Below, in pieces: positions 18,001-24,000 of a stretch of 64,000 nt of DNA. Positions within the stretch are counted from its first letter, which is position 1. Each line of letters starts with the position of its first letter. The DNA is from an uncultured Puniceicoccaceae bacterium (lineage in GTDB: Bacteria > Verrucomicrobiota > Verrucomicrobiia > Opitutales > Oceanipulchritudinaceae). Position numbers: made by a program. The DNA lies in contig CAWVVV010000001.1 of the NCBI GenBank assembly GCA_963933835.1, forward strand, positions 480,001 through 544,000, read 5' to 3'.

Positions 18001-21000
18001 TTTCTGCCAGACGGCCAGTCAAGTCGTAGCCACCATTGTCTGGATAAAGCCAAACATCCTTCAGCGCCTTGGCGGCAGCTTCGAGCGCGAGTGGAGAGGC
18101 TCCGAGTGGGTTTTCGTTCGAAGCTAATTTTATAATCTCCGCTGGATTCAAGCCAAGCTCGCGGGCCACGACTTCAATCGGGCGACCGGGTTGGTAAACC
18201 GGGAGCGTATCGATCTGCGGATTCAATAGCGTAGCATAGCTCATGCATCTCATAGGATTTTGAAGTACAAGAATCGCAAACCCAATCTTGCCCTACCCAT
18301 CTAAGGGCTGGCACCAATTTAGAGTAATGGAGCGACTCCATCTAAGTGTTCTGAGCACAGAAACCCGAACGGCGGCTGAAAACATGGCAGCCGACCTTGC
18401 GATGAGGCATGCGCTCAGCCCTGCGTCACCGGTCGTCCTGCGTTTTTACGACTGGGCTGAGCCCTCGCTGAGCTTTGGATACTTTCAAAGATGGGTAGAC
18501 GTTTGCAAAAGACTCGAAGCAGAGGCGCCAGTCAGCGTTGTTCGCCGACCAACCGGGGGCGGCATTGTAGATCATCGCTCTGATGTCACCTACGCCCTTG
18601 TCTTCGCGCGTGGGACATCTTTCGCCGAACAAAAGACTACTTGCCTGTACGAAGCCGTTCACACGGCCCTATTCGAGGCGCTGAATGAACTCGGTGAATT
18701 TACCTGTTTAAGCCACGACGCTCCGCTCAAAGCAACTGCCCTGAGCTGTTTTGAAGCGCCTGTTCGCTCAGACATCATCGATTCCATCAGCGGCCTGAAA
18801 ATTGCCGGCTCAGCCATTCACCGTGGCAAAGAATCTATCCTCGTCCAAGGCAGCCTAGAATCAAAACGCCTCTCGAAGTCACTCACTCCAGAAGATCTCT
18901 CAGAAGCATTTGCTCATCGACTCGGCGTCAAAGTCGGCTTGGCCTCAACAGCCTCAATACCGCTTTTTACATTGCATGTCGCCGCCGCTGATGTAGCCCG
19001 ATTTTCCAACACCTCGTGGACCCAGCGCCGTTGAACCAACTCCCCGATGCGCCTACATTTTAGAGAAAGCTCTGTCGACTACCGCCACTACACTTTTCCC
19101 TATAGAGTGTTGGCCGAAAAAGAATCCAGCGACACGCTCGCTTCAATCTACGAGCAAGGTTTCCTCCCCGCATCGAACGACTACGCAGAAGAGCGGGAAC
19201 TTTTCTACCTCGCAAGGAGTCTTCGTCTGGATCTTCGAGAGCTGGGTTTCGACAAGAAACGTCGCTATCTGCAACACCGCGGCACAGAAACAGGCTTACA
19301 CAGCAATCGCCTTAGTATCAAGGAGCTGATGGCGAGTCACCCACGCTGGAAAGAGTCCGTCATAGAGTGGGTCGAAGGCCGATTCCAGCCACCCTACATG
19401 ACCTCAGAGCGACTTGAATACATCCTCAAGCGCAACTTCCTAACTCAATGTATTGCGACCTATTGCGACACGGAGCTGGTCGGCATCACACTGCTGCCTC
19501 ATGACGCCGCTATCGCTCACTACTGGTTTGTTTTTTATGATCCAGAATGGAACCCTGAGCGATCTCTTGGTAAATGGATTCTAGGCGACTGTGGACGGTT
19601 GCACCAAGAGCAAGGATTTGAATACTTGTATTTAGGAACCTGCTACACAAAAACTGCTGCCTACAAATTCCAAGGCATTGCGTCCGGGGTAGAATTTTAC
19701 GAAGGAAGCACCTGGTCAGACTCCATCGAAGAGCTTCAAAAAAGACTTACTTCCGACGGACTAAGCTCTGATTAGCTGCCGCCATTTTCAGCTTGTATCC
19801 ATTCTTCCACGACGGATCGATCCGAGAACGATAATTTCTGATCACCCACCAACTGATAGTCCTCATGGCCCTTACCAGCGATCAGAATGAGGTCCCCATC
19901 CCTGGCTTGTTCCAACGCTGCGAGTATAGCGTCCTTCCGGTCTTCGATCGTCGCTACCCTACCTGCGTCCATAACCCCAGTCTGTATATCCGCGATGATT
20001 GATCGCGCATCTTCCGAACGCGGGTTGTCAGAAGTGATCCAAACTTGATCGGCGAGACGTGTAGCAATCTCACCCATTATCGCCCGTTTACCTCGATCCC
20101 GATCGCCTCCACATCCAAAAATGAGGTGCAAGGAACGAGGTGCCAGCTGTCGGCAAGCACTCAAGACAACTTCGAGCCCGTCCGGGTTGTGAGCATAATC
20201 GACTACCACCGCTGCTCCATTGGGCAGTTCGATGCGCTCCATTCGGCCAGGAATAGCCTGCACACCCGAAAGCGCCTCCCAGCTGGCTTCAAAGGAGTGC
20301 CCCAGCCCCAGCAAGGTTGCTCCTGCAGCCATCAGATTCTCTAATTGAAAAAAGCCTACCAACGAGGTTCGAAGCTCGGCCCGGGCACCTCTCCATTCAA
20401 CGCAGAAGTCAGTCCCAGTAGATTCGACCGAAGTATGAATCAGTTTCAAATCCGCCCAAGGTTCACTGCCATAAGTGACAACCGTCCCTGCGGTCTGAGA
20501 GGCATATACCGGAGTCATCGGAGAAGCGGTTGGCAAAACGGCGACGGCGTCCTTCCGAAGCGAACGAAAGAGCAAGCCTTTGGCCTCATGATAGTCCTGC
20601 AATGATCCGTGGAAATCGAGGTGATCGCGGGTAACGTTTGTCAGGACCGCTGCTTTCCATTGCACCGCAGCGACACGATCAAGGGCCAAGGCGTGTGAGG
20701 AAACCTCCATTGCAATAGCCTGTGCACCGTCCGCTCGAAGCCCGGCAAGCTTGCGATACAATTCTACAGATAGATCGGTGGTGTACTCGGGTGGAGACCA
20801 AAGCTGCCCGTTAAGAAATGTTCCAAGGGTTCCCAGGGAACCCGCCGAGCCTGTCAGCTTACGGAGGGCTTGATAGAGCAACTGTGTTGTTGTCGTTTTT
20901 CCGTTCGTCCCCGTTACGCCGATGAGAGGGAGAGATTCATCCGGCGAACCGTAAAAAGCTTTTGCGAGGCGAGCACAGGCTACGGGCACATTTTCGCTTT

Positions 21001-24000
21001 TGATACGAGTGCCTGTCGACTGACTGCTCACGACAAAGGCAGGGCCTCCACCCTGCACCGAGGCATGGATTTCATCTTCGCTCCACCACTGCTGGTAATC
21101 GTGGTATTCTGGAAAAACAAAGAATGCCTTCCCTTCGATATCTGCGCTCGGACGGCATTCGACACCTCTCACGACAATCGACCCATCGAGCCCTGGGTTC
21201 TCCAACCCGATAATCTTGAGCGCCTCGGCTAGTTTCATCGCTTAGACAAAAGACCCAATTTCAACAAAAGCTAAAGGAGAATCCCGGAAAAAGAAAAGGG
21301 ACCCGATGGGGGGGCCTTCAATATTCGACCTACAGAGATAGTGCTGCGATCTGATGAGTCTATGACGACTCAAAAAGTGATAACTAACTGGAAATAGAGA
21401 CTGCTCTAGTTATTCACACCGGTCAATTTTACATTTGAGCCCATTATTGTTTTACAAATGGTTTACAGAGCCACCGACGCTGTAAACGTCGGCCATCATT
21501 ACCACGTAGGAATCACCGGCGATTTTCTTGGCCTTATCGAGCGAACCCTCAGTCGGTCCCATCCAGTTCGGGATCATCAGGATGCCCGGCTTCAGCTCGC
21601 CACCCAAATCGGAGTAAACGATCGTAGACTCAAACATGAGGTCACCTAGTTGATGCTGAACAACCTTGGTCACCTGCTCACCCCAAGCGCAAAGCGTAGT
21701 AATGGCGACCAAGGGAAAGAGATGAATAAGTCTAAAGCTCATCCCTACACGCATAGCCACGCTGCAACTCAAAGCGAATTCAAATCGTCTTTTGTTACGG
21801 TGTAGTGAGCCGCGCAACGTGGGCAATTTACCGTCGCCGTTGGATCGTTGCCAAATATCTGTTCGGGGTCCTGCTCACAGATTGGGCGAAGCACCTCTTG
21901 GATCTTCTCCAAGCTGCATCCACAAAACCAACGATAGCGGCGGGTCTCGAGAAGATTGCTCTCCTCATTTTCCGACAATCCCGCGAGAATATCAGTGCTC
22001 ATCGTCGTGAACCAGCCCTCGTCGTAATCAGGGTGAGCCGTCGCTAGCACGCCCACATCGCCCTCGGGGAAAAACAGCCGCCCGGGGCGCTGCTCGCTTT
22101 GCGCATAAAAACGCTCCACAGGTGCGATCGCTCCCTGCCCCTTGAAATCGACGTAACTGCGATGCAGCGGTTTGTTCGGGCGCTTGATTTCCTGATACAT
22201 CTCACTTTCGCCACCCGGGCGAATACCCGAAGTAAAAAGCCGACCCGCGACCGTCCCTCGCTCAGTGTCGCCGGCAAAAAAAGCACTACAAAGCGGATTG
22301 GCGAAGCGGATCGTCCAAGCGATGACTTCGTTTTGCGGACGCGATGCACAATGCAGCGTAAAGGCCGCGAGCAATTCCTTGAAGAGTTGGTCAAATTCGG
22401 GTTCGTGGTGAATGCCCTGATCCTTGCAATGCAAGTAGTAGTCCACGTAAAGCGGCGAAAAATCGGCTTCGGAAAGGAGGACATTTCGATGGCGAACAAA
22501 GGTATTTTCCACCGTCACGCCACTTTCTAGAAAAGCTTTATCTTCTGCAGACATCTCTTTCTCCAAATCACCCACCCCACGAAGGTCAACTATCGTCCGC
22601 AAACTTTCGGATATCGACATAGCTGCCAGAAGCGACCTGCTCGACCAACTTCGGGGCGACATCCCAGAGCCGTAGCCCTACTTCCACCCCGTCCGGCATC
22701 TGTTCAGTCCCTTTTGCCGCCTTCAAGCGCTCAATCGTCGGATAGCGCTCATCGACTGCCAATGCGGTCAGATAATCCTGCATCTCTGAATCCACGAGAC
22801 CCGGTGCCAGAGCTGTAAAATGCGTCTTGGGCAATTCAGCAGCAAAGGATTGCACCCACATATTCAAAGCTGCCTTCGAAATTCCGTAGGCATTCCAACC
22901 GCGATGCCCACTAATAGAGGCGCCCGAAGAAATTGCCACCACCTGTTCAATCTGCGCCCTTCCCTCGAGAAGACTAAGCAACCAGTGATTAGCGAAGACA
23001 TTGACCTCGAAGGTTGCTTTCAAAATGCTCAACGAGGTTGCACGCAGATCGGCGATGGGCGGGAGGATCCCCGCGTTGAGCCAAACCTGGTCCCACTTGC
23101 CCACATCCGCCACCCAGTTCTCAACGGCAGCCGAGGCGTTCTCAGCGTCTGACAAATCTGCTGACAAAAAACGCAAGCGCTCCCTGTAAACTGAGAATGA
23201 CTTGTCCGGTGGGCGGCGACTGATCCCCCACACGTTTGCACCCGCCCTGAGTGCCGCGTGAGCCAGCCCCTCTCCAAGCCCTGAACTGATCCCTGTGATT
23301 AATACATTCACGCCGCCAAATGAAGCATTTCCACACAACAAGGCAACCTCGCCGCGTTGCAAAATTTTGCAGAACCATCATTGATGATCGATACTTAGAA
23401 TGACTCGACTTGCCATCCAAAGCTCAACTGTGACATCAACTGGATTCAAATGAGTCGCCGCCAAGCGAGCGGTGCTGTAGCGCTTCTTGAGCTCAAGGCG
23501 ACTTTTGAGATATTGAAGGTGCCGCATCCCGACCTTTAAGTTTATCCGCCAATTGTAGGCCTGCTCCCAGGAGTGGTCTGATCGATCCGACCAAGCCGCA
23601 TGAGACAGCTGCATCATGCCCCGCGCGTAGTCGGTGTCAGCATGCGCGTTGAGCGTACTCTCAGCGTAGGCAATGTTGAGAACAAAGGCTGGATCGAGCC
23701 CATATTGAGGCGCTTCTCGCTGAATTTCCGCCCAAACGACTTCCTTCGGAATGTAGGCATCTCCCCGACGCGAGCAGGTGAAGAGGAAAACGAGGCCCAG
23801 GAGTCCCGCGAGGGCTAAGAAGAAGTTTCGCCCGTTGATCGCGATGGAGAATGTCGCAGGCAAATCTGAATGATTTTTCTTCAATGAGATATCACTGGCT
23901 CTCTACCAGCGGCTCTTTAGATTCCAAAGCTCGCGGCCATCTTTAATCACCTGCGCGAGGACTTCGGGCGTAATGCTCTGCTTCGGATCGTCTCCGATTC

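What a model noticed while it worked through the whole genome (the two positions that open the first line are those of the whole stretch)
19772..21238. Peptidoglycan precursor pathway without MurC, MurD and MurI: only an Mpl-like and a second MurE-like ligase remain
This 97%-complete genome keeps a full cell-wall set (murA, murB, murE, murF, mraY, murG, ftsW, rodA, two bPBPs, ddl, alr) but has no MurD at all, no orthologue of the dcw-cluster MurC that basal members of its family carry, and no glutamate racemase. Its only Mur-type ligases are g00349 (C1:356634-358010; closer to Mpl than to MurC), g01628 (MurE, in the dcw cluster), g01627 (MurF) and g00491 (C1:499772-501238, a second full-length MurE-like protein that keeps the DNPR motif). 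In the dcw cluster the murD slot between mraY and ftsW is taken by a membrane-anchored triple-LysM protein (g01625, C5:65868-66968). Four ligases remain for four steps, so g00349 and g00491 are the only candidates for [...]
Evidence so far: Six-frame HMM search: TIGR01087 (MurD) over cut-off in 10 of 37 family genomes (G003-G006, G011, G030-G034), a diverged copy in genus g11, only cross-hits to other Mur ligases (E 1e-11 to 1e-19, middle domain) in G000 and likewise weak hits in G001, G002, G007-G010, G012, g12, G035. g00491 orthologues (43-53% id, mostly 490-510 aa) in 25 genomes of genera g1, g6, g7, g8, g10, g11, g12, g15 and in none of the 10 with canonical MurD, where the query only hits dcw MurE at 35-39% or nothing. 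TIGR01082 (MurC): 9 of those 10 genomes show two hits, a dcw MurC (E 1e-84 to 1e-99, ORFs of 556-872 aa) plus the Mpl-like gene; G000 and the rest have the Mpl-like gene alone (E 1e-60 to 1e-74), G036 an ext [...]
(Added by a program. Inside this text positions count along the whole contig: contig position 480,001 is position 1 of the stretch shown here. "Call 12" and the like, gene names such as g00115 and contig names such as C1 are that model's own, and its searches are not shown. The text may have been shortened before it was handed on; [...] marks where a part breaks off. The agent that wrote the report below was given it as the finding of a first reader that could run no searches.)

Follow-up and report, generated by a model that had tools for sequence, protein, structure and literature searches.

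The report
Cell-wall pathway without MurC and MurD
This bacterium and its relatives lack two textbook enzymes that start the peptide of the cell wall, and the gene studied here, an altered copy of the third enzyme, lies beside a transfer-RNA-dependent enzyme that probably builds that peptide by another route.

Summary
Window 19772-21238 (-) encodes a full-length MurE paralogue ("MurE2"). The genome (Opitutales) has no MurD, no dcw MurC and no MurI, only an Mpl-like ligase, MurE, MurF and MurE2.

- MurE2 keeps 81 of 87 residues conserved in canonical MurE, including DNPR.
- It has lost only the UDP-site motifs of domain 1.
- Other Opitutales lost murC and murD without having MurE2.
- MurI is missing from the whole family, and the LysM gene already stood beside murD.

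New lead: the gene convergent with MurE2 (19047-19775, +) is an ATE/Fem-fold aminoacyl-tRNA transferase.
- In the family it is found in none of the 10 genomes with canonical MurD.
- In metagenomes, relatives sit in the murC slot of dcw clusters.
- Relatives also form operons with a MurC/Mpl-like ligase and an N-acyl-Glu epimerase.

Best model (inferred, 0.45):
- Ala-tRNA plus Glu gives L-Ala-Glu.
- MurE2 adds mDAP off the nucleotide.
- The Mpl-like ligase loads the peptide on UDP-MurNAc.

No biochemistry exists. Four MurC/D-less genomes lack the transferase.

The parts
19772..21238 (-). MurE2 (g00491): full-length MurE-family ATP-dependent amino-acid ligase, 488 aa
   Evidence: ORF. NF001126 444 bits against cut-off 373. 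Pfam Mur_ligase_M and Mur_ligase_C. AlphaFold2 pLDDT 91.7, with TM 0.86-0.89 to MurE structures 1e8c, 4c12 and 4bub over the full length.
20945..21238 (-). MurE2 domain 1 (aa 1-98). It has the fold of the uridine-binding domain of MurE, but the canonical D-S-R motif reads C-R-P-S (21146-21157).
   Evidence: Not aligned by phmmer to E. coli MurE; the alignment starts at aa 89. D29, S30 and R31 are conserved in 94/86/93% of 88 canonical MurE and lost in the 22 MurE2. Domain 1 is the uridine nucleoside site (PMC3829189, passages).
21083..21109 (-). E44 (21107-21109) in place of the Gly of the diphosphate loop, followed by a 5-residue aromatic insert Y48-W52 (21083-21097)
   Evidence: Gly in 85 of 88 canonical MurE; Glu in 22 of 22 MurE2. 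Y48 is in 21 of 22 and W51 in 22 of 22 MurE2, where 87-88 of 88 canonical sequences have a gap. It aligns with Gly83 of M. tuberculosis MurE, named a diphosphate-loop residue in PMC6736417 (passage); that mapping comes from offsets and is an inference.
20018..20029 (-). DNPR motif (aa 404-407), the determinant for meso-diaminopimelate
   Evidence: Translation. Invariant in 21 MurE2 orthologues. Role taken from PMC3829189 (passages).
20894..20911 (-). P-loop GTNGKT (aa 110-115). K220 (20579-20581) aligns with the Lys of the E. coli 'EAAK' motif.
   Evidence: That this Lys is the carbamylated lysine of Mur ligases is recalled, not tested.
19047..19775 (+). ATE-like aminoacyl-tRNA-transferase-fold protein (P0002, 242 aa). 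It is convergent with MurE2 and the stop codons overlap (TTAG).
   Evidence: Pfam Acetyltransf_6 2e-7 and ATE_C 3.3e-5. NCBIfam arginyltransferase 26.7 bits against cut-off 252. pLDDT 94.1. All fold hits listed are aminoacyl-tRNA transferases: ATE1, Sbb17/Sba18, A-PGS/MprF, L/F-transferase, FemX. Overlap of the stops.
18288..19034 (+). Diverged LplA/LipB-family gene, 12 nt upstream of the ATE-like gene on the same strand. It may share an operon; its role is unknown.
   Evidence: Pfam LplA-B_cat 3e-14. Adjacent to the ATE-like gene also in G001, G002 and G012. No paralogue in G000 and no PDB sequence hit.

Best explanation
In this Opitutales clade the first two peptide-forming steps of peptidoglycan precursor synthesis (MurC, MurD) have been replaced by a route that builds the peptide off the nucleotide.

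1. The ATE-like transferase next to MurE2 takes L-Ala from Ala-tRNA and puts it on the alpha-amino group of Glu, free or already gamma-linked to mDAP. This makes the L-Ala-Glu bond that MurD normally makes.
2. MurE2 is an mDAP-adding MurE whose UDP pocket has been rebuilt. It couples the gamma-carboxyl of that Glu to mDAP on a substrate without UDP-MurNAc and yields free L-Ala-gamma-D-Glu-mDAP.
3. The Mpl-like ligase, whose family's natural substrate is exactly this tripeptide, loads it on UDP-MurNAc. MurF then completes the pentapeptide.

Shown: the gene content, the residue pattern of MurE2, the fold of the transferase, and the gene contexts. Inferred: every substrate and the order of steps 1 and 2.
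For: (a) Clean loss. The dcw cluster is contiguous without murD or murC. The only MurC-family ligase is Mpl-like.

(b) Chemistry. Only the L-Ala to Glu bond of the stem can come from an aminoacyl-tRNA: an alpha-carboxyl donor and an amine acceptor. Sources name relatives 'arginyl-tRNA--protein-N-Asp/Glu arginylyltransferase'. That the ATE family accepts N-terminal Asp or Glu is recalled.

(c) Fold. All fold hits listed for P0002 are aminoacyl-tRNA transferases.

(d) Distribution.
- P0002 homologues are in 26 of 37 family genomes and in none of the 10 with canonical MurD.
- They occur together with MurE2 in 25 genomes. The two exceptions are 68% and 84% complete.
- The two genes are adjacent in 13 of 25 orthologous loci, plus G000.
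- In 401 sampled Opitutales the family is found in 28 genomes, none with canonical MurD.
- In family f4 it is in 4 of 8 MurD-less and 0 of 27 MurD-bearing genomes. Same-genus controls G048 and G352 have MurD and MurC::MurB and lack it in the single-protein search; for G048 the profile search agrees.
- It is in 1 of 301 sampled Bacteroidota (G859). That genome has MurE, MurF, MurF-Alr, FolC and one MurC/Mpl-like ligase far under both cut-offs, and no MurD.

(e) Independent contexts in metagenomes.
- Of 57 loci with at least 1.3 kb upstream, 19 have murG directly upstream and ftsA/ftsZ downstream, which is the murC slot.
- Three have a MurC/Mpl-like ligase directly upstream (L193 with a 4-nt overlap).
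- L190 and L191 run mraY-ftsW without murD.
- L237 reads MurE | N-acyl-Glu / L-Ala-D/L-Glu-epimerase-like gene, MurC/Mpl-like ligase, ATE-like gene.
- In G271 a true alanine racemase overlaps the start of the ATE-like gene.

(f) MurE2. It keeps 81 of 87 canonical-conserved positions. It loses D-S-R and the diphosphate-loop Gly (to an invariant Glu) and gains an aromatic insert.

(g) Mpl. Psychrobacter Mpl turns over the tripeptide 260/min, against L-Ala-D-Glu 1.4/min and L-Ala 0.7/min (PMC3060825, passages).
Against: No biochemistry exists for any of these proteins.

- Four f4 genomes (G179, G268, G317, G322) lack MurC and MurD and also lack the ATE-like gene by profile search. The transferase is therefore not the universal answer.
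- The f4 and Bacteroidota genomes with the transferase have no MurE2, so MurE2 is not needed for the bypass.
- G382 has a clade-B homologue together with a normal MurD.
- Genus g11 keeps a diverged MurD together with MurE2 and the transferase.
- The family-f1 transferases (clade A) and all others (clade B) are separate clades. Contexts seen for clade B are carried over to clade A by homology only.
- 35 of the 57 metagenome loci show no cell-wall context.
- The canonical dcw MurE is kept in all genomes and is left without a necessary role in the tripeptide version of the model.
- MurE2 and the transferase are convergent, not co-transcribed.
- The source of D-Glu in G000 is unknown.
- The completeness of G859 is not given.
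Confidence: 0.45

Rival explanations
1. First reader's model. The Mpl-like ligase works as MurC, adding L-Ala to UDP-MurNAc. MurE2 has taken over the MurD step, adding the second residue to UDP-MurNAc-L-Ala.
For: Four Mur-type ligases remain for four steps in G000. In the family, MurE2 and canonical MurD exclude each other. Overexpressed E. coli mpl complements a murC(ts) mutant, and Mpl accepts L-Ala weakly (PMC3060825, passages).
Against: - MurE2 keeps DNPR, R385 and E459 and all other residues conserved in mDAP-adding MurE. It scores 102.6 bits on the MurD model, against a cut-off of 211.95.
- What it has lost is the UDP site, which a MurD substitute would still need.
- MurC/D-less genomes of f4 and G859 have no MurE2.
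- g11 has MurE2 beside a diverged MurD.
Confidence: 0.08
2. [quoted passage not shown] The ATE-like enzyme has another job, for example a Fem-like side-chain addition or N-terminal tagging of proteins. MurC and MurD are replaced by the Mpl-like ligase and a still unrecognised enzyme.
For: - MurE2 passes the MurE equivalog cut-off.
- It forms its own clade away from the Opitutales dcw MurE, with Pseudomonadota MurE as a weakly supported sister (support 87, FastTree).
- Four MurC/D-less genomes have neither MurE2 nor the transferase, which calls for some other solution.
- Fem enzymes are tRNA-dependent branch-adding enzymes of the same fold class (abstract of PMC2175331 in the listing).
Against: - It does not explain why 5 invariant UDP-site positions changed to new, equally conserved residues.
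- It does not explain why MurE2 and the transferase stay adjacent across three genera.
- It does not explain why relatives of the transferase take the murC slot or pair with a MurC/Mpl-like ligase and an N-acyl-Glu epimerase.
Confidence: 0.22
3. Salvage. These bacteria load imported or recycled L-Ala-gamma-D-Glu-mDAP on UDP-MurNAc with Mpl and no longer make the first residues de novo. MurE2 and the transferase serve recycling or editing.
For: Mpl is the recycling ligase and prefers the tripeptide (PMC3060825, passages). Loss of murC and murD recurs in Opitutales that all keep the Mpl-like gene.
Against: - Canonical MurE is kept everywhere, and in f4 it sits on short branches in MurD-less genomes. 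Its substrate is presumably still made.
- MurA/B-type functions, Ddl and MurF are kept.
- Net growth cannot rest on recycling alone (inference).
- Free-living genomes of 4-5.8 Mb are among the MurD-less ones.
Confidence: 0.12
4. Artefact. MurC and MurD are present but were missed because of a draft assembly or the limits of the models.
For: G000 is a 10-contig draft, 97.35% complete.
Against: The murD and murC slots are contiguous and empty in G000. The same holds in four f4 genomes, among them a single-contig genome of 4.15 Mb. The same models find MurD in 373 of 401 genomes of the phylum.
Confidence: 0.03

Closest known systems
[quoted passage not shown]
   Same: Three-domain fold (TM 0.86-0.89). 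P-loop, DNPR, R385 and E459. 81 of 87 conserved positions. Score above the curated cut-off.
   Different: Domain-1 D-S-R motif lost. The Gly of the diphosphate loop is replaced by an invariant Glu. A 5-residue aromatic insert. T351N and D472S. It lies outside the dcw cluster, forms a clade apart from the Opitutales MurE, and is paired with a tRNA-transferase-fold gene.
[quoted passage not shown]
   Same: It supplies the logic of loading a ready-made peptide on UDP-MurNAc. The only MurC-family ligase of G000 scores best on the Mpl model (348.2 bits).
   Different: In known bacteria Mpl is a dispensable recycling enzyme beside MurC (PMC3060825, passages). Here it would be the sole entry into the pathway. 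Its score stays under the Mpl cut-off of 388.7.
MurD2/MurL alternative pathway of Xanthomonas (L-Glu added, then epimerised on the nucleotide)
   Same: A documented alternative early step of peptidoglycan synthesis in bacteria without MurI. The L237-type operon, with an N-acyl-Glu epimerase-like gene, suggests the same 'add L-Glu, epimerise later' logic (PMC8788868, passages).
   Different: MurD2 is a MurD homologue acting on UDP-MurNAc-L-Ala. Here MurD and MurC are absent altogether and a tRNA-dependent enzyme is implicated. G000 has no L237-type epimerase.
Fem transferases (FemX, MurM, FemABX)
   Same: They use aminoacyl-tRNA to form peptide bonds on peptidoglycan precursors and belong to the same fold class (abstracts in the listing).
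   Different: Fem enzymes add side-chain or bridge residues to a finished stem. None is known to make a bond of the stem itself or to replace a Mur ligase. No FemAB Pfam hit for P0002.
ATE1/Bpt aminoacyl-tRNA-protein transferases of the N-degron pathway
   Same: Best structural match (human ATE1, TMq 0.69). ATE_C-type sequence signal. Acceptors with an acidic N-terminal residue, which is recalled and echoed by source names.
   Different: Scores of 25-55 bits, against Bpt cut-offs of 170-358, for 9 family members tested. No ATE_N hit in P0002. Genomic context is cell wall, not proteolysis.

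Membership tests
MurE (NF001126 / TIGR01085) | Score over the curated cut-off of the family models | tested here: met
   444 bits against 373; 435.6 against 257.3.
MurE (NF001126 / TIGR01085) | Three-domain Mur-ligase fold with ATP P-loop | tested here: met
   pLDDT 91.7; TM 0.86-0.89 to 1e8c, 4c12 and 4bub; GTNGKT present.
MurE (NF001126 / TIGR01085) | mDAP-binding residues (DNPR and partners) | tested here: met
   D404, N405, P406, R407, R385 and E459 are invariant in 21 orthologues. The role of DNPR is from PMC3829189; the roles of R385 and E459 are recalled.
MurE (NF001126 / TIGR01085) | Domain-1 motifs of the uridine-diphosphate site (D-S-R; Gly of the diphosphate loop) | tested here: not met
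   D, S, R and G are conserved in 86-97% of 88 canonical MurE and absent from 22 of 22 MurE2, where E44 is invariant.
MurE (NF001126 / TIGR01085) | [quoted passage not shown] | not testable with these tools
   Needs an enzyme assay.
MurD (TIGR01087) | Score over the curated cut-off | tested here: not met
   MurE2 scores 102.6 bits against 211.95. The best hit in the genome is 68.9 bits.
Mpl (TIGR01081), for the ligase at C1:356634-358010 | Score over the curated cut-off, and better than on the MurC model | tested here: inconclusive
   Mpl 348.2 bits against cut-off 388.7; MurC 229.5 against 335.1. Closest to Mpl, but under the cut-off.
ATE/Bpt aminoacyl-tRNA-protein transferase, for P0002 | Score over the cut-offs of the NCBIfam arginyltransferase models | tested here: not met
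   26.7 bits against 252. Nine relatives score 25-55 bits against 170-358.
ATE/Bpt aminoacyl-tRNA-protein transferase, for P0002 | Fold of the aminoacyl-tRNA-transferase class of GNAT proteins | tested here: met
   All fold hits listed are such enzymes; ATE1 has TMq 0.65-0.69.
ATE/Bpt aminoacyl-tRNA-protein transferase, for P0002 | N-terminal ATE_N domain | tested here: not met
   No PF04376 hit at E <= 0.001.
Fem transferases (PF02388) | Match to the FemAB family model | tested here: not met
   No such hit in the Pfam scan of P0002. Only fold likeness to FemX, TMq 0.51-0.53.

The most novel reading that the evidence does not exclude
Several bacterial lineages (an Opitutales family, some Opitutaceae-like genera, some Bacteroidota) build the core of the peptidoglycan stem peptide off the nucleotide. 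A previously uncharacterised ATE-like enzyme makes the L-Ala-Glu bond from Ala-tRNA. Where needed, an epimerase then inverts the Glu. A MurC/Mpl-type ligase loads the ready peptide on UDP-MurNAc, so the 'essential' enzymes MurC and MurD are dispensable. MurE2 would be the first Mur ligase that works on a free peptide instead of a UDP-MurNAc substrate.
Probability: 0.4. Interest if true: 0.92.

Novelty: new variant of a known kind. Interest (0 to 1): 0.82.

Why it matters
MurC and MurD are treated as universal, essential steps of cell-wall synthesis and as antibiotic targets. Here they are cleanly deleted in at least two Opitutales families, and probably in some Bacteroidota, while the rest of the pathway is kept.

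If the tRNA-dependent route is real:
- It would be the first case in which translation machinery supplies a bond of the stem peptide itself, not just a side branch.
- It would be a second alternative early pathway, after MurD2/MurL.
- It would explain how these steps can be lost.
- It would give a function to a rare family. The profile search over 1.84 billion representatives found 173 cluster representatives at E <= 1e-30.
- It might bear on the old reports that verrucomicrobial subdivision 4 seemed to lack muramic acid and diaminopimelate (PMC5303756, start of abstract).

Tried and rejected
- **Glutamate racemase.** The weak Asp/Glu-racemase hit (22 bits) is PanB.
- **Dipeptide epimerase in G000.** The single MR_MLE hit is an o-succinylbenzoate synthase by its best PDB matches (E 3e-40). 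Its adjacency to the transferase in G023 was dropped as chance. No L237-type epimerase is found in G000 by tblastn.
- **Neighbours of the Mpl-like gene.** They are housekeeping genes in G000 and in f4 and give no lead.
- **Neighbours of the transferase in G314, G337, G382, G035 and G028.** Nothing related to the cell wall.
- **The four exceptions.** A profile search for the transferase in the four MurC/D-less f4 genomes found nothing. A search for what stands at their Alr locus found no Alr at E <= 1e-30.
- **Complex prediction, MurE2 with the transferase.** No answer.
- **Dedicated tRNA.** aragorn finds 37 tRNAs and one tRNA-Ala(GGC), with none in excess. The tRNA set of a draft may be incomplete.
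- **Papers.** Four searches found no report of a tRNA-dependent or MurC/MurD-less stem-peptide route. Subscription journals are not covered.
- **Earlier notes of this scan.** Nothing relevant.
- **Not done because caps were used up.** D-amino-acid aminotransferase (PF01063), MurC in G382, and a direct MurD model search in G859; there MurD was excluded only by listing and classifying all Mur_ligase_M ORFs.

Full report
**1. What is there**

Window 19772-21238 (minus strand) is an ATG-started ORF of 488 aa.
- It scores 444 bits on the MurE equivalog NF001126 (cut-off 373) and 435.6 on TIGR01085 (257.3). It scores only 102.6 on MurD (211.95) and 89.1 on MurC (335.1).
- Pfam finds the middle and C-terminal Mur-ligase domains but no N-terminal one.
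- phmmer aligns it to E. coli MurE (E 1e-88) only from residue 89 on.
- An AlphaFold2 model built on 21 orthologues (pLDDT 91.7) superposes on MurE structures over its full length (TM 0.86-0.89), so domain 1 has the MurE fold.

I call the protein MurE2. Record titles of related contigs place the organism in Opitutales, Verrucomicrobiota.

**2.

G000 (1.94 Mb, 10 contigs, 97.35% complete) has five Mur_ligase_M ORFs: dcw MurE, MurF, MurE2, an Mpl-like ligase and a FolC-like protein.
- The MurD model gives only cross-hits, at most 68.9 bits.
- The MurC model gives 244.5 bits on the Mpl-like gene. That gene scores Mpl 348.2 (cut-off 388.7) and MurC 229.5.
- The one weak racemase-family hit is PanB.
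- The dcw cluster is contiguous: mraZ-rsmH-ftsL-ftsI-murE-murF-mraY-LysM-ftsW-murG-murB-ddl-(312 aa)-ftsA-ftsZ. The absence of murD and murC is a clean deletion, not an assembly gap.

**3. Distribution in the family (37 genomes)**

- MurE2 orthologues (43-53% identity) are in 26 genomes. The other 11 have only the dcw MurE at 35-40%.
- MurD passes its cut-off in 10 genomes, none of which has MurE2. Genus g11 keeps a diverged MurD in the dcw slot.
- dcw MurC, in fused frames of 556-872 aa, is in 9 of those 10. All others have the Mpl-like gene alone, except G036, which has an extra strong MurC.

- MurI is missing from all 37 genomes, also those with MurD, so it is not part of this event.
- The LysM gene stands between murD and ftsW in all 18 family loci that reach past murD (10 with canonical, 8 with diverged MurD; a 19th ends at murD), and in G048 of another family. 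It did not take murD's place.

**4. MurE2 is an mDAP ligase with a rebuilt nucleotide pocket**

I aligned 22 MurE2 with 88 canonical MurE from many phyla. Of 87 positions conserved in at least 85% of canonical sequences, MurE2 keeps 81: the P-loop, the DHLD-H-G...AK block, DNPR, R385 and E459.

It lacks six:
- D29, S30 and R31, the D-S-R motif;
- G44;
- T351;
- D472.

G44 is an invariant Glu in MurE2 and is followed by a 5-residue insert with Y48 and W51. Domain 1 of MurE holds the uridine nucleoside site (PMC3829189, passages; PMC3133487, passages). G44 aligns by offsets with Gly83 of M. tuberculosis MurE, named a diphosphate-loop residue (PMC6736417, passage). This mapping is an inference.

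The new residues are as conserved as the old ones, so the pocket was re-purposed rather than left to decay. This is the opposite of what a MurD substitute needs. Such an enzyme would keep the UDP site and change the amino-acid site.

In a FastTree tree MurE2 forms one clade (support 100), apart from the Opitutales dcw MurE (support 100). Its sister is Pseudomonadota MurE with weak support (87), which suggests acquisition from outside.

**5. The overlooked neighbour**

The gene at 19047-19775 (+) converges on MurE2 and the stop codons overlap. It encodes a 242-aa protein, P0002.
- It gives weak Acetyltransf_6 and ATE_C signals. On the bacterial arginyltransferase models it scores 26.7 bits against a cut-off of 252.
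- Its model (pLDDT 94.1) matches only aminoacyl-tRNA transferases among the hits listed: ATE1, the peptide synthases Sbb17/Sba18, A-PGS/MprF, L/F-transferase and FemX.
- Homologues are in 26 of 37 family genomes. They are in none of the 10 with canonical MurD.
- They accompany MurE2 in 25 genomes. The two mismatches are genomes 68% and 84% complete.
- The two genes are adjacent in 13 of 25 orthologous loci, of genera g1, g10 and g11.

Within one family this is a single evolutionary event, so I looked outside.

**6. Outside the family**

Opitutales and the phylum:
- In 401 sampled Opitutales the transferase family occurs in 28 genomes: 24 of family f1 and 4 of f4.
- In a phylum sample MurD is found in 373 of 401 genomes.
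- In f4, 8 of 35 genomes lack MurD. The transferase is in 4 of these 8 and in 0 of the 27 with MurD.
- Within genera g18 and g33, G314, G337 and G271 have the transferase, no MurD, no MurC and only the Mpl-like ligase. Their congeners G048 and G352 have MurD and MurC::MurB and no transferase: both in the single-protein search, G048 also in the profile search.
- The dcw maps show murD and the murC half of murC::murB excised in G271, G317, G322 and G268.
- These genomes and G179 have just four Mur_ligase_M ORFs each, so no MurE2.

Bacteroidota:
- Of 301 sampled genomes one (G859) has the transferase.
- Its Mur ligases are MurE, MurF, MurF-Alr, FolC and one MurC/Mpl-like protein far below both cut-offs. 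It has no MurD. Its completeness is not given.

**7. Gene contexts in metagenomes (80 loci of the non-f1 clade)**

- Of 57 loci with at least 1.3 kb upstream, 19 have murG directly upstream of the transferase. ftsA lies within 1.6 kb downstream in 12 of 39 loci long enough to show it. The order ftsW-murG-[transferase]-(253 aa)-ftsA-ftsZ puts the transferase in the murC slot.
- L190 and L191 run mraY-ftsW without murD.
- No MurD homologue was detected in any of the 80 loci. The only hit of the MurC::MurB query is a weak 55-bit match in L254, 2.4 kb from the transferase, which was not looked into (tblastn, E <= 1e-6).
- Three loci have a MurC/Mpl-like ligase directly upstream, in L193 with a 4-nt overlap.
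- L237 reads: MurE (divergent) | enolase-superfamily epimerase-like gene (N-acetyl-D-Glu racemase DgcA 227 bits, L-Ala-D/L-Glu epimerase 171 bits, both under cut-off), MurC/Mpl-like ligase, transferase.
- In G271 a true alanine racemase (337 bits) overlaps the start of the transferase gene.
- The other 35 of 57 loci show unrelated neighbours such as EF-G, a GT2 glycosyltransferase and a sigma factor.

**8. Model**

Of the four amide bonds of the stem, only L-Ala to Glu can be made from an aminoacyl-tRNA. It needs an alpha-carboxyl donor and an amine acceptor, and the ATE family is recalled to take acidic N-terminal residues as acceptors.

The contexts therefore suggest this route:
1. The transferase makes L-Ala-Glu.
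2. An epimerase follows where L-Glu is used.
3. A MurC/Mpl-type ligase loads the peptide on UDP-MurNAc.

Psychrobacter Mpl prefers the mDAP tripeptide by about 200-fold over L-Ala-D-Glu (PMC3060825, passages). This gives MurE2 a plausible role in f1: adding mDAP to the free peptide so that the Mpl-like enzyme receives its ancestral substrate. All substrates are inferred.

**9. What does not fit**

- G179, G268, G317 and G322 lack MurC, MurD and the transferase. With the query used they also lack Alr at E <= 1e-30.
- G382 has the transferase and a normal MurD.
- g11 keeps a diverged MurD.
- The f1 transferases form a clade of their own, so evidence from the other clade is carried over by homology only.
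- None of 9 family members tested reaches the Bpt cut-offs.
- The dcw MurE is retained everywhere.
- The D-Glu source of the family is unknown.
- Complex prediction gave no answer.
- Four literature searches found no precedent.

**10. Verdict**

The interpretation 'MurE2 = MurD substitute' is unlikely. The better-supported reading is a new, partly tRNA-dependent variant of early peptidoglycan synthesis in which MurE2 is an accessory free-peptide mDAP ligase. It needs enzymology.

Noticed in passing
G179, G268, G317, G322 (family f4); dcw maps in L181-L183: Four 99-100% complete Opitutales genomes lack MurC, MurD and the ATE-like transferase, and have no Alr match at E <= 1e-30. They keep MurE, MurF, MraY, MurG and MurB, and Ddl is mapped in G317, G322 and G268. 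How they make the first two stem residues and D-Ala is unexplained.
   Followed up: partly
All 37 genomes of the family (genome search): No glutamate racemase (TIGR00067) in any genome of the family, including the 10 with canonical MurD, which need D-Glu. The D-Glu source is unknown. The reference list of PMC6736417 cites a bifunctional DapF of Chlamydia.
   Followed up: partly
window 18288-19034 (+): A diverged LplA/LipB-family gene lies 12 nt upstream of the ATE-like gene on the same strand. It is also next to it in G001, G002 and G012. It has no paralogue in G000 and no PDB sequence hit. It may be the ordinary lipoate ligase or part of the module.
   Followed up: partly
G036:C5:64658-68680 (L050): One MurE2-bearing genome has an extra murG-murC::murB-ddl segment with a strong MurC (465 bits, over the cut-off). 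This looks like a second, perhaps acquired, partial dcw set.
   Followed up: no
Genus g11, e.g. L046-L048, L051-L055: Diverged MurD (150-187 bits, or split hits of about 80+80 bits) is kept in the dcw slot in genomes that lack MurC and have MurE2 and the transferase. It may be an intermediate or re-purposed state.
   Followed up: no
P0141 (809 aa): One family member is fused at its C-terminus to a PEP-synthase / rifampin-phosphotransferase-like ATP-grasp and swivel-domain region.
   Followed up: partly
window 23378-23884 (-) and 25720-26904 (-): An SLT-domain lytic transglycosylase and an LptF/LptG permease lie a few kb from MurE2. These are ordinary envelope genes, with no evident link.
   Followed up: no
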